A program made the position numbers. This document shows, one piece after another, positions 11,579 through 13,076 of a stretch of DNA of 64,000 nt; position 1 is the stretch's first letter, and each line of letters opens with the position of its first letter. Source of the DNA: Octopus sinensis (Eukaryota); the NCBI RefSeq assembly GCF_006345805.1, contig NC_043012.1, positions 39,184,001 through 39,248,000 on the forward strand, in the 5' to 3' direction.

Positions 11579-13002
11579 AAAAAGGGGGTCGAATTAATTA
11601 ATTGTTAATAAATTCGACCAAGCAGTATTCGGTATGTAAAGACCATTTACGGTATATTTGAAGTATTAATTTATAAAAATATGTAAAGTAAAAGAATTCA
11701 CTTTACCACACACCGAACTTTTCAGAAATAGCAGCCAAAAATTTGACTATTTCTTCAACTGCAAATAAAAGTCTCCAGACATGCATACTCAGAAAAATAA
11801 CTCACATAGGTATAAGGGAAAATGAAAGATCACATCCATACGATACCCGAGGACAGTCTGTTTCTGGATTTGTGGGTAAAACGCCACTTTTCCTTCATCA
11901 GCTCAGAGATTTCTTCTGATTTAGATTTGAAAATACTAAGAATCAAACATACCCGTCCGATATCTGTAACATCGGACAAACCATGCCAGACACCCAGTAC
12001 TAGCGAATCCAAAAATACGAATGAGATCTATTATTCTCCCTGTCCACCCACGTGAGTCATAGAGCATTACATTTCTACAGAGGTAAAAACTGCAGTTCAA
12101 ATTCTTGGAGAGAAAGCATTATATTTTATCAAAAAGGGGGTCGAATTATTAATTGTTAATAAATTCGACCAAGCAGTATTCGGTATGTAAAGACCATTTA
12201 CGGTATATTTGAAGTATTAATTATAAAAATATGGTTAAAGTAAAAGAATTCACTTTACCACACACCGAAACTTCAGAAATAGCAGCCAAAAATTGACATT
12301 TCTTCAACTGCAAATTAAAAGTCTCCAGACAATGCATACTCAGAAAAATAACTCACATAGGTATAGGGAAAACAAAATGAAAGATCACATCCATTACGAT
12401 ACCCGAGGAAGTCTGTTTCTGGATTTGTGGGTAAAACGCCACTTTTCCTTCATCAGCTCAGAGATTTCTTCTGATTTAGATTTGAAAATACTAAGAATCA
12501 AACATACCCGTCCGATATCTGTAACATCGGACAAACCATGCCAGACACCCAGTACTAGCGAATCCAAAAATACGAATGAGATCTATTATTCTCCCTGTCC
12601 ACCACGTGAGTCATAGAGCATTACATTTCTACAGAGGTAAAAACTGCAGTTCAAATTCTTGGAGAGAAAGCATTATATTGTTATCAAAAAAGGGGGTCGA
12701 ATTAATTAATTGTTAATAAATTCGACCAAGCAGTATTCGGTATGTAACCATTTACGGTATATTTGAAGTATTAATTATAAAAATATGGTAAAGTAAAAGA
12801 ATTCACTTTACCACACACCGAACTTTTCAGAAATAGCAGCCAAAATTTGGCTATTTCTTCAACTGCAAATAAAAGTCTCCAGACAATGCATACTCAGAAA
12901 AATAACTCACATAGGTATAAGGGAAAAACAATGAAAGATCACATCCATCTGGAGACTTTTATTTGCAGTTGAAGAAATAGCCAAATTTTTGGCTGCTATT
13001 TC

Positions 13003-13076
<74 letters not shown>

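What the first reader, a model, noticed from the sequence alone, without database searches (positions are those of the whole stretch)
12930..13003. 5' end of element B falls ~12 nt from the predicted self-cleavage site and continues as an inverted piece
Seen: in minus-strand sense the array begins at 12948, equivalent to 11839 in unit 1, only 12 nt downstream of the predicted cut (11852/11851). It is preceded by a 56-bp inverted copy of 12829-12883. Inference: the template RNA's 5' end was made by ribozyme cleavage and the RT or second-strand step produced a short inversion, which would be a genomic footprint of in vivo ribozyme activity.
Basis: partly seen in the sequence, partly recalled or inferred. 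Interest (0 to 1): 0.7.

Follow-up and report, generated by a model that had tools for sequence, protein, structure and literature searches.

The report
Ribozyme-bearing repeat with inverted 5' stub
A 2.5-unit tandem repeat carrying a hammerhead-like motif sits inside an (AT)n microsatellite and ends in a 56-base inverted copy of itself, which fits the known untidy insertion style of Penelope-like retroelements and does not prove that the ribozyme cut its RNA.

Summary
Element B is a head-to-tail array on the minus strand (+ coordinates 11577-12948, units of about 553 nt). Its sense-strand 5' end at 12948 equals 11839 in unit 1, 12 nt 3' of the putative hammerhead cut (11852/11851). It is followed by a 56-nt inverted copy (12948-13003) of 12828-12883.

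B and its neighbour A (10205-11127, 55% identical) are hammerhead-bearing, non-coding tandem elements. Both lie in one (AT)n microsatellite inside a SINE-like repeat. This matches animal non-LTR retrozymes and non-autonomous Penelope-like elements (PLEs): 5' truncation, tandems, inverted 5' pieces and (TA)n targets are published PLE traits.

The claim that ribozyme cleavage made the RNA 5' end is not supported:
- It rests on one end, 12 nt off the site (chance 2.4-4.5%; 4.5-8.6% for two arrays).
- Array A keeps 142 nt upstream of its own, better hammerhead.
- B's hammerhead is degenerate, and one of its two copies lacks the GUC.
- For one PLE, published in-vitro assays found ribozyme cleavage unnecessary for insertion.

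A reverse-transcriptase or repair step as the origin of the inversion is plausible. Genome-wide endpoints could not be collected.

The parts
11577..12948 (-). Element B: head-to-tail array of 2.5 units (11577-12129, 12130-12683, 12684-12948). The sense strand is minus, the 3' end is at 11577 and the truncated 5' end is at 12948.
   Evidence: Units are 96-98% identical over aligned columns. GC is 34.3%. The one long ORF tested (12239-12616) has no Pfam match.
11846..11907 (-). Hammerhead-like motif of B unit 1: helix I UCUGAG/CUCGGG, core CUGAUGA, 30-nt helix II, GAAAC-AGACU-GUC. The putative cut is between 11852 and 11851.
   Evidence: The pattern gives 1 match against 0.01 expected. Helices I and II covary with element A. 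There is no Rfam hit. The 10.1-11.1 position is A.A.
12402..12462 (-). Same motif in B unit 2, but GUC is reduced to UUC by loss of one G. This copy is probably inactive.
   Evidence: The pattern search finds no match here.
12948..13003 (+). 56-nt inverted copy of B positions 12828-12883, abutting the truncated 5' end. The T at 12948 is shared by both segments.
   Evidence: (pair I23), (nhmmer E 4.3e-13 on the + strand).
12828..12883 (-). Source segment of the inverted copy in unit 3. Together with 12948-13003 it forms a 56-bp hairpin stem with a 64-nt loop (12884-12947).
11423..11576 (.). (AT)n tract abutting the 3' end of B.
13007..13081 (.). (TA)n tract on the 5' side of B, after the inverted piece and a T5 run (13004-13008).
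10205..11127 (-). Element A: related family, 55% identical to B. It is a 1.6-unit array with a 583-nt period, its 3' end abuts (AT)n 10147-10209, and its 5' end at 11127 equals 10544 in unit 1.
10397..10487 (-). Hammerhead of A unit 1: CCUACG/CGUAGG helix I, CUGAUGA, G-C closed long helix II, GAAAC-GUAC-GUC. The cut is at 10403/10402. A second copy lies at 10980-11070.
   Evidence: The pattern gives 2 matches against 0.00 expected. The predicted dimer has an 8-bp intermolecular helix III. Covariation is shown.
10029..10147 (+). Left half of the host SINE-like repeat whose internal microsatellite received A and B.
   Evidence: colinear with 34927-35027 and 53574-53502.
13084..13260 (+). Right half of the same host repeat.
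   Evidence: matches 35150-35313 and 53413-53261. In those paralogues the two halves are only 122 and 88 nt apart.

Best explanation
Element B is a non-coding, hammerhead-bearing tandem retroelement of the animal 'non-LTR retrozyme' / non-autonomous Penelope-like-element kind. A multimeric template (a linear multimer or a rolling-circle copy) was reverse-transcribed from a nick in an (AT)n microsatellite, starting at the 11577 side. Synthesis stopped short, which is ordinary 5' truncation, at the position equivalent to 11839. While the 5' junction was being resolved, the free 3' end of the cDNA folded back on itself 65 nt upstream, or a second priming or repair polymerase step did the equivalent. 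This copied 56 nt of the opposite strand before the end was joined to the other side of the microsatellite.

Shown here:
- the array, its orientation and its ends;
- the inverted copy;
- the (AT)n setting inside a host repeat;
- a conserved hammerhead fold shared with family A;
- PLE fragments with the same target in the window.

Inferred:
- mobilisation by a PLE reverse transcriptase/endonuclease;
- the fold-back step;
- that the 12-nt distance to the putative cut is coincidence, or at most a polymerase stall before the folded ribozyme.
For: Hammerhead motif. The pattern CTGATGA..GAAAC..GTC occurs 3 times in 64 kb, only in A and B, all on the minus strand, against 0.00-0.02 expected. Between the A and B families, 38 of 40 cells of helices I and II pair and 4 of 10 pairs carry double changes. 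Slid registers pair only 12-55% of cells.

Element type. The units are head-to-tail, AT-rich (34% GC) and have no Pfam-recognisable ORF (1 ORF tested).

Target. A, a 284-nt spacer and B together occupy the internal microsatellite of a repeat whose halves are 88-122 nt apart in two paralogues.

PLE fragments in the window show the same target:
- A GIY-YIG ORF at 22174-22860 (Pfam E 1.4e-5) lies in a copy whose 3' end abuts (AT)n at 22997.
- Head-to-head copies at 45174-46828(-) and 46829-47660(+) have 98.7-100% identical arms and TA-repeat flanks.

Literature:
- PLE insertions are 5'-truncated partial tandems, often with an inverted 5'-truncated copy at the 5' end, and some clades prefer (TA)n (PMC8557442, passages).
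- Self-priming has been inferred from inverted junctions (PMC3846280, passages).
- Both target strands are extended, and hammerhead cleavage is not needed for insertion in vitro (PMC11167929, parts 1-2).
- Tandem type I hammerhead repeats are described as retrozymes (PMC7229834, passages).
- Retrozymes are proposed to be PLE derivatives (10.64898/2026.07.22.740005, abstract and Discussion).

Against a cleavage-defined end. Array A keeps 142 nt 5' of its cut. B's motif is degenerate.
Against: - No autonomous PLE in the window shares sequence with A or B, so the partner is unidentified.
- Units of about 553 nt exceed the 150-450 nt reported for animal retrozymes (PMC7229834).
- The inverted piece is an internal 56-nt fragment. 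It does not start at the unit position where the array's own 3' end lies. This differs from the classical PLE head-to-head structure and from the in-window example at 45-47.7 kb, where the inverted copy runs to the element's 3' terminus.
- Microhomology at the fold-back point is only 0-1 nt.
- Target-site duplications cannot be read in a microsatellite.
- A distance of 12 nt from the cut has only a 2-5% chance probability. A link to the ribozyme, through cleavage or through a structural stall, is therefore not excluded.
- The array could also have grown by unequal crossing-over after insertion.
Confidence: 0.6

Rival explanations
1. The hammerhead cut the multimeric RNA in vivo. The reverse transcriptase ran to (or nearly to) the new 5'-OH end, and the cDNA end then snapped back. 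About 12 nt were lost in trimming, so the junction is a genomic footprint of ribozyme activity.
For: - The 5' end lies 12 nt 3' of the putative scissile bond, with chance 2.4% one-sided.
- The hammerhead fold is conserved between families A and B.
- Partial cleavage of multimers is expected for dimer-dependent hammerheads with a short helix III (PMC4209133 and PMC7229834, passages).
- There is a precedent: the HDV-like ribozyme of R2 defines that element's 5' junction (PMC3774820 and PMC3414825, abstracts only).
Against: - The end is not at the site, and the 12 nt must be explained away.
- There is only one case.
- Array A's 5' end lies 142 nt upstream of its cut, leaving an intact uncut site.
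- B has A.A at 10.1-11.1, its helix III palindrome is interrupted and does not form in the predicted dimer, and unit 2 lacks GUC.
- For PAc, ribozyme mutants inserted normally and no reads started or ended at the cut site (PMC11167929).
Confidence: 0.12
2. Post-insertion DNA event. A break or stalled fork at the fragile (AT)n / array boundary was repaired by fold-back (snap-back) synthesis and end joining. This deleted part of a once longer array and left a 56-nt templated inverted insertion. On this reading the end says nothing about the RNA.
For: - The junction abuts a 75-nt (TA)n tract.
- The inverted copy is templated from 65-120 nt away on the same strand, with 0-1 nt microhomology. This is the pattern known for polymerase-theta-type templated insertions (established knowledge, recalled, no paper read here).
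- The inverted piece differs from unit 3 by only 1 indel, whereas units differ by 2-4%. A similar or younger age is therefore possible.
Against: - 56 nt is long for such repair insertions.
- The same kind of inverted 5' structure is a recurrent trait of PLE insertions (PMC8557442, PMC3846280) and is seen at 45-47.7 kb in this window.
- No second rearrangement scar is visible.
Confidence: 0.17
3. Twin priming in the PLE style. The second target strand primed its own cDNA on the template at the position equivalent to 12828 and extended 56 nt. The two cDNA 3' ends were then joined head to head.
For: - A purified PLE protein cleaves and extends both strands and starts at internal RNA sites that are not homologous to the target (PMC11167929).
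- The flank-proximal end of the piece lies just 5' of the block most conserved between A and B apart from the hammerhead (GCTGCTATTTCT..TTCGGTGTGTGGT).
- There is an in-window head-to-head PLE example.
Against: - In PAc both strands use the same start sites (PMC11167929). In the in-window example the inverted copy reaches the element's 3' terminus. Here the start differs from the array's own 3' end by about 144 nt.
- The inverted segment duplicates sequence already present in the direct copy instead of lying upstream of it.
Confidence: 0.08
4. Assembly artefact: a chimeric or fold-back read created the inverted stub.
For: Many differences between units are 1-nt indels in homopolymers, which suggests error-prone long reads.
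Against: - A short 56-nt inversion flanked on both sides by ordinary sequence is not the usual form of read chimeras.
- The piece carries its own variant state (A5 with GGC) that is not an exact copy of any unit.
Confidence: 0.03

Closest known systems
Animal non-LTR retrozymes (tandem repeats with type I hammerheads; Cervera & de la Pena 2020, PMC7229834; proposed PLE derivatives in 10.64898/2026.07.22.740005)
   Same: - Head-to-tail multimers.
- One type I hammerhead per unit on one strand.
- Low GC (34%).
- No LTR and no recognisable ORF.
- A short helix III, implying dimer-dependent cleavage (family A).
   Different: - The unit is about 553-583 nt, against 150-450 nt reported.
- Helix II is unusually long (30 nt in B, about 59 nt in A).
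- B's core is degenerate.
- circRNA expression is unknown.
Penelope-like element insertions (pLTR/tandem/inverted structures; Craig et al. 2021, PMC8557442; Arkhipova et al. 2013, PMC3846280)
   Same: - 5' truncation.
- Partial tandems.
- An inverted element fragment abutting the 5' end.
- A (TA)n target.
- Hammerhead motif in the sense orientation.
   Different: - There is no RT/EN ORF.
- The inverted piece is a 56-nt internal fragment, not a 5'-truncated copy reaching the 3' terminus.
- No 30-40 bp 'tail' was recognised.
PLE minimal / dimeric hammerheads (Cervera & de la Pena 2014, PMC4209133)
   Same: - Short helix I (6 bp).
- Large helix II.
- Helix III reduced to 1-3 bp, with a palindromic loop in A (CGUACG).
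- In B, an extra nucleotide after A9 is one possible reading.
   Different: B lacks the conserved G10.1-C11.1 pair in either reading (A.A, or an extra A before G12), and its helix III palindrome has a central mismatch.
L1 5' inversions by twin priming (PMC2837659 and PMC2912911, search listing and abstracts only)
   Same: An inverted segment at the 5' end of a 5'-truncated retrocopy, joined with little or no microhomology.
   Different: In L1 the inverted part lies upstream of the direct part in the RNA. Here it duplicates a segment inside the direct part, unless it came from the next unit of a multimer.
R2 / L1Tc HDV-like ribozymes that define the element's RNA 5' end (PMC3774820, PMC3414825 and PMC3185411, abstracts only)
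   Different: - The ribozyme class is different.
- In R2 the cut coincides with the junction, whereas here the end is 12 nt away in one copy and 142 nt on the other side in the sister array.

Membership tests
Hammerhead ribozyme, type I | Conserved core: CUGAUGA ... GAAA ... U-H cleavage triplet, in type I order (helix I open) | tested here: met
   B unit 1 and both A units match CTGATGA..GAAAC..GTC (3 matches, 0.00-0.02 expected). B unit 2 fails because it has lost the G of GUC.
Hammerhead ribozyme, type I | Helices I and II flank the core and are maintained by compensatory change | tested here: met
   38 of 40 cells pair and 4 of 10 pairs have changes on both sides between A and B. Slid registers pair 12-55% of cells. 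Only two independent lineages were compared, so this amounts to one comparison.
Hammerhead ribozyme, type I | G10.1-C11.1 pair closing helix II | tested here: not met
   Met in A (G-C). In both B units the position is A.A (pair 24-83).
Hammerhead ribozyme, type I | Match to curated covariance models (Rfam hammerhead families) | tested here: not met
   No hammerhead hit at gathering score in the window, or at E<=10 in B or in A. A's canonical core is also missed, so this negative says little; the long helix II is the likely reason.
Hammerhead ribozyme, type I | Self-cleavage at the predicted bond | not testable with these tools
   This needs in-vitro transcription of monomer and dimer constructs, or 5'-end mapping of RNA.
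PLE-type dimeric hammerhead | Short helix III with palindromic 15.2-16.2 positions and loop 3, allowing a double hammerhead | tested here: inconclusive
   The A dimer MFE shows an 8-bp intermolecular ACGUACGU helix with helix I formed in trans (-50.7 against -43.1 kcal/mol for monomers). The B palindrome ACAG-A-CUGU has a central mismatch and does not form in the MFE.
Animal non-LTR retrozyme | Head-to-tail repeats of a few hundred bp, each with a type I hammerhead, low GC, no LTR/PBS/PPT and no ORF | tested here: met
   GC 34-36%; no Pfam match in the one ORF tested. Unit length of 553-583 nt is above the published 150-450 nt range.
Animal non-LTR retrozyme | Expressed as linear and circular monomer RNAs | not testable with these tools
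   No transcriptome is available.
Non-autonomous PLE derivative | Sequence similarity to the pLTR or 3' end of an autonomous PLE of the same genome | tested here: not met
   Within the window only: BLAST and nhmmer with A/B units find nothing outside A and B. The rest of the genome was not available.
PLE-type insertion | Insertion into (TA)n microsatellite (Neptune, Naiad and Hydra clades) | tested here: met
   B is flanked by (AT)n on both sides and A on its 3' side. The empty-site paralogues have only 88-122 nt between the halves.
PLE-type insertion | Inverted 5'-truncated copy immediately adjacent to the 5' end | tested here: inconclusive
   An inverted fragment abuts the 5' end (I23). It is a 56-nt internal segment that does not reach the element's 3' terminus, unlike the in-window PLE pair at 45174-47660.
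L1-type twin priming | The inverted segment lies upstream of the direct segment in the template, and target-site duplications flank the whole insertion | tested here: inconclusive
   The segment duplicates 12828-12883 inside the direct copy, but it could come from the next unit of a multimer. Duplications are unreadable in (AT)n.

The most novel reading that the evidence does not exclude
In this genome, hammerhead-bearing tandem retroelements are copied from RNAs whose 5' ends are made by in vivo hammerhead cleavage. The reverse transcriptase, on reaching the 5'-OH end, self-primes on its own cDNA. Short inverted stubs a few nucleotides 3' of the GUC would then be a recurrent, genome-readable record of ribozyme activity and of the PLE 5'-end resolution step.
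Probability: 0.1. Interest if true: 0.65.

Novelty: new member of a known kind. Interest (0 to 1): 0.3.

Why it matters
The role of hammerheads in Penelope-like elements and animal retrozymes is still open. The papers read here state that cleavage is dispensable for insertion in vitro and that the function is unclear. If genomic 5' ends of such elements clustered at the cut site, ordinary genome sequence would show that the ribozyme acts before reverse transcription. It would also show how PLE-type 5' ends and inverted repeats arise.

As it stands, the locus is a clean, small example of known PLE-style insertion untidiness: a tandem, 5' truncation, an inverted stub and a (TA)n target. It involves two related ribozyme families nested in one microsatellite. 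That makes it useful for annotation but not surprising.

Tried and rejected
- **Rfam.** Scans of the window at gathering score and of B and A at E<=10 found no hammerhead. The only sub-threshold hits were miRNA families (MIR530 at 39.9 bits against a gathering score of 85, and others), caused by the long hairpin and by (TA)n. I reject these as spurious. Because the canonical A motif is also missed, I do not count the Rfam negative against B.\n- **Thermodynamic fold of B's motif.** It is not unusually stable (z = +0.74 and +0.44), which is uninformative for hammerheads.\n- **More copies of A or B in the window.** BLAST and an nhmmer profile found none, so only 2 arrays could be scored for endpoints.\n- **A relaxed regex hammerhead scan.** It recovered only B unit 1 and missed A because of its non-greedy design. 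I discard it as a count.\n- **The 284-nt spacer (11139-11422).** It shows no significant similarity to A, B or the flanks, apart from a 22-38 nt inverted match to the host-type repeat. Its origin is unresolved.\n- **Extra microhomology for the fold-back.** By reading the sequence at 12880-12890 against ...CCAT I found at most 1 nt.\n- **The T5 run after the inverted piece.** I considered that it might be the remnant of the element's 3'-terminal T6-GA, implying an internally deleted full inverted copy. The G is absent, so I leave this as speculation.\n- **Collections not used.** The phage, plasmid, E. coli and prokaryote-genome collections cannot hold this animal repeat. The genome-wide endpoint test therefore stayed undone.\n- **Supplements.** I did not open the supplements of the cited papers. 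The hammerhead figures and PLE structure tables there might bear on how often short inverted stubs occur.

Full report
**What is there**

The window is AT-rich (34.9% GC) and dense in microsatellites. Between two (AT)n tracts (11423-11576 and 13007-13081) lies a head-to-tail array. Its copies are at 11579-12125, 12130-12683 and 12687-12948 and are 96-98% identical over aligned columns.

The array stops at 12948, the position equivalent to 11839 in unit 1. Directly after it, 12948-13003 is the reverse complement of 12828-12883. The two differ by one base in an A-run (pair I23; E 2.8e-20). The arms make a 56-bp stem with a 64-nt loop (dG -59.6 kcal/mol, z -15.9).

On the minus strand, unit 1 carries CTGATGA-(30 nt)-GAAAC-AGACT-GTC at 11901..11852, with UCUGAG/CUCGGG available as helix I. 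A hammerhead cut would fall between 11852 and 11851, 12 nt 5' of the point where the truncated third unit begins. Every coordinate in the finding is therefore correct.

**Is the hammerhead real?**

Rfam gives no hammerhead hit at gathering score or at E<=10. This is uninformative, because the neighbouring array A has a textbook core and is also missed. Array A spans 10205-11127 on the minus strand, with a 583-nt period and units 98% identical. Its core reads CCUACG-CUGAUGA-[G...C long helix II]-GAAAC-GUAC-GUC-CGUAGG.

The core pattern occurs three times in the window, only in A and B and always on the minus strand, against 0.00-0.02 expected.

A and B are homologous but only 55% identical. Across them helices I and II stay paired in 38 of 40 cells, and 4 of 10 pairs are changed on both sides. 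Shifted registers pair 12-55% of cells. That is one inter-family comparison, not many, but it supports a conserved fold.

In a two-copy cofold, A forms the classic double hammerhead, with an 8-bp intermolecular ACGUACGU helix III. B does not.

B also deviates from the consensus. It has A.A at the normally G-C 10.1-11.1 pair. Its second unit reads ...CAGACUUCC, having lost the G of GUC. This could be a real mutation or a homopolymer-type sequencing error.

B's motif is thus a recognisable but degenerate member of the PLE-type, dimer-dependent hammerheads described by Cervera and de la Pena. Those have a large helix II, a short helix I and a minimal palindromic helix III, and show low activity in vitro (PMC4209133, passages read).

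**Setting**

The left flank (10029-10147) and right flank (13084-13260) are the two halves of one SINE-like repeat. In two other copies in the window the halves are colinear and only 122 nt (34927-35027 / 35150-35313) and 88 nt (53574-53502 / 53413-53261) apart, separated by a microsatellite. Everything from about 10148 to 13083 is therefore microsatellite plus insertions, in this order:
- (AT)n;
- array A;
- a 284-nt unrelated spacer;
- (AT)n;
- array B;
- the inverted stub;
- T5;
- (TA)n.

Two related ribozyme families landed in the same microsatellite in the same orientation, each with its sense-strand 3' end against (AT)n.

The window also holds Penelope-like element (PLE) remains with the same habit:
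- A GIY-YIG ORF at 22174-22860 lies in a copy whose 3' end abuts (AT)n at 22997.
- A head-to-head pair occupies 45174-46828(-) and 46829-47660(+). Its arms are 98.7-100% identical, it carries RT- and EN-like ORF fragments, and it has TA-repeat flanks.

**Comparison with the literature**

- Craig et al. [quoted passage not shown] They also report (TA)n as the preferred target of several clades and non-autonomous derivatives that make multicopy head-to-tail insertions.
- Arkhipova et al. (PMC3846280, passages) infer self-priming from the inverted junctions.
- Frangieh et al. (PMC11167929, main text parts 1-2) show that a purified PLE protein cuts AT-rich DNA and extends both strands, and that ribozyme-dead templates insert as well as wild type. 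They found no RNA-seq reads beginning or ending at the ribozyme cut.
- Cervera and de la Pena (PMC7229834, passages) define animal tandem hammerhead repeats as non-LTR retrozymes.
- A 2026 preprint (10.64898/2026.07.22.740005, abstract and Discussion) argues that these are non-autonomous PLE derivatives.

Element B fits this known kind.

The idea has a respectable precedent. In R2 an HDV-like ribozyme sets the 5' end that appears at genomic junctions (PMC3774820 and PMC3414825, abstracts only).

The evidence here is thin:
- The end is 12 nt from the site, not at it.
- Under uniform truncation, a hit within 0-12 nt 3' of the cut has P = 2.4% (4.5% two-sided). For at least one of the two arrays available it is 4.5% (8.6%).
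- The second array speaks against the idea. A ends at the position equivalent to 10544, keeping 142 nt 5' of its scissile bond and a complete, better ribozyme.
- B's units 1 and 2 also retain uncut sites.

A weaker link cannot be excluded. The end lies 6 nt beyond the 3' foot of helix I, so a polymerase stall before the folded motif would give the same picture without any cleavage.

**Origin of the inverted stub**

The first-strand cDNA has + strand polarity and grows from 11577 towards 12948. The stub is what this strand would produce if its 3' end folded back and copied itself from 12883 down to 12828. It would then have been joined to the far side of the target.

The T at 12948 is the only shared base. 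The stub carries A5 like units 1 and 2 and GGC like unit 3, so it is as old as, or younger than, the array.

Alternatives are these:
- Priming from the second target strand. This is disfavoured because the start differs by about 144 nt from the array's own 3' end, whereas the in-window PLE pair and PAc use the same start on both strands.
- A later fold-back repair at the fragile (TA)n boundary.
- Much less likely, an assembly artefact.

I cannot separate these with one locus.

**Verdict**

The locus is a new member of a known kind. The decisive test, a census of 5' endpoints and stubs over all genomic copies, needs the genome, which was not available.

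Noticed in passing
window 10205-11127 (minus strand): Element A is a second, related hammerhead tandem family: 583-nt period, 1.6 units, units 98% identical. It has a canonical core and a palindromic CGUACG helix III that forms a double hammerhead in a predicted dimer. It sits in the same microsatellite as B and is missed by Rfam.
   Followed up: yes
window 11128-11422: About 290 nt of unrelated sequence lie between the 5' end of array A and the next (AT)n tract. The stretch has no match to A, B or the flanks, apart from a 22-38 nt inverted match to the host-type repeat. 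It could be captured or transduced sequence at A's 5' junction.
   Followed up: partly
window 10029-10147 and 13084-13260; paralogues 34927-35313 and 53261-53574: This SINE-like repeat has an internal microsatellite that served as the landing site for A and B. The paralogues act as empty sites. From recall only, and untested, the repeat resembles abundant cephalopod repeats.
   Followed up: partly
window 22069-22997 (+): A 5'-truncated PLE copy retains only the GIY-YIG endonuclease end (Pfam PF01541, E 1.4e-5) and a 137-nt 3' UTR. It lies between an (AC)n/(TATACATA)n tract and (AT)n.
   Followed up: partly
window 45174-48748: This is a complex PLE locus. A minus-strand copy with RT-like (..YKDDALAL..) and EN-like ORF fragments abuts head-to-head a plus-strand 5'-truncated copy whose arms are 98.7-100% identical, and further partial copies follow. 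Two copies carry an extra stretch of about 85 nt at the 3' end before (AT)n that the third lacks (tail-like). The EN linker reads CxCX5C, the motif Craig et al. give for the Hydra clade.
   Followed up: partly
window 12838-12994: The B hairpin gives sub-threshold Rfam hits to plant miRNA precursor families (MIR530 at 39.9 bits against gathering 85; MIR7502). These are spurious as family matches. If transcribed, however, a 56-bp hairpin could feed small-RNA pathways against the element.
   Followed up: no
window 11576-11583 and 13003-13010: Both junctions of the B insertion with (AT)n carry a run of 5-6 A/T: ATC-A6-GGGGG on the left and TTTCT-T4-ATAT on the right. It is unexplained and could hint at a preferred start or joining context.
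   Followed up: no
window 55969-57684 (-), 41698-43333 (-), 36187-36765 (+): LINE-type reverse transcriptase (RVT_1, E 1.5e-24) and zf-RVT fragments are present. They include a tandem duplication of about 1.03-1.08 kb at 41331-43447 with 86% identity.
   Followed up: no
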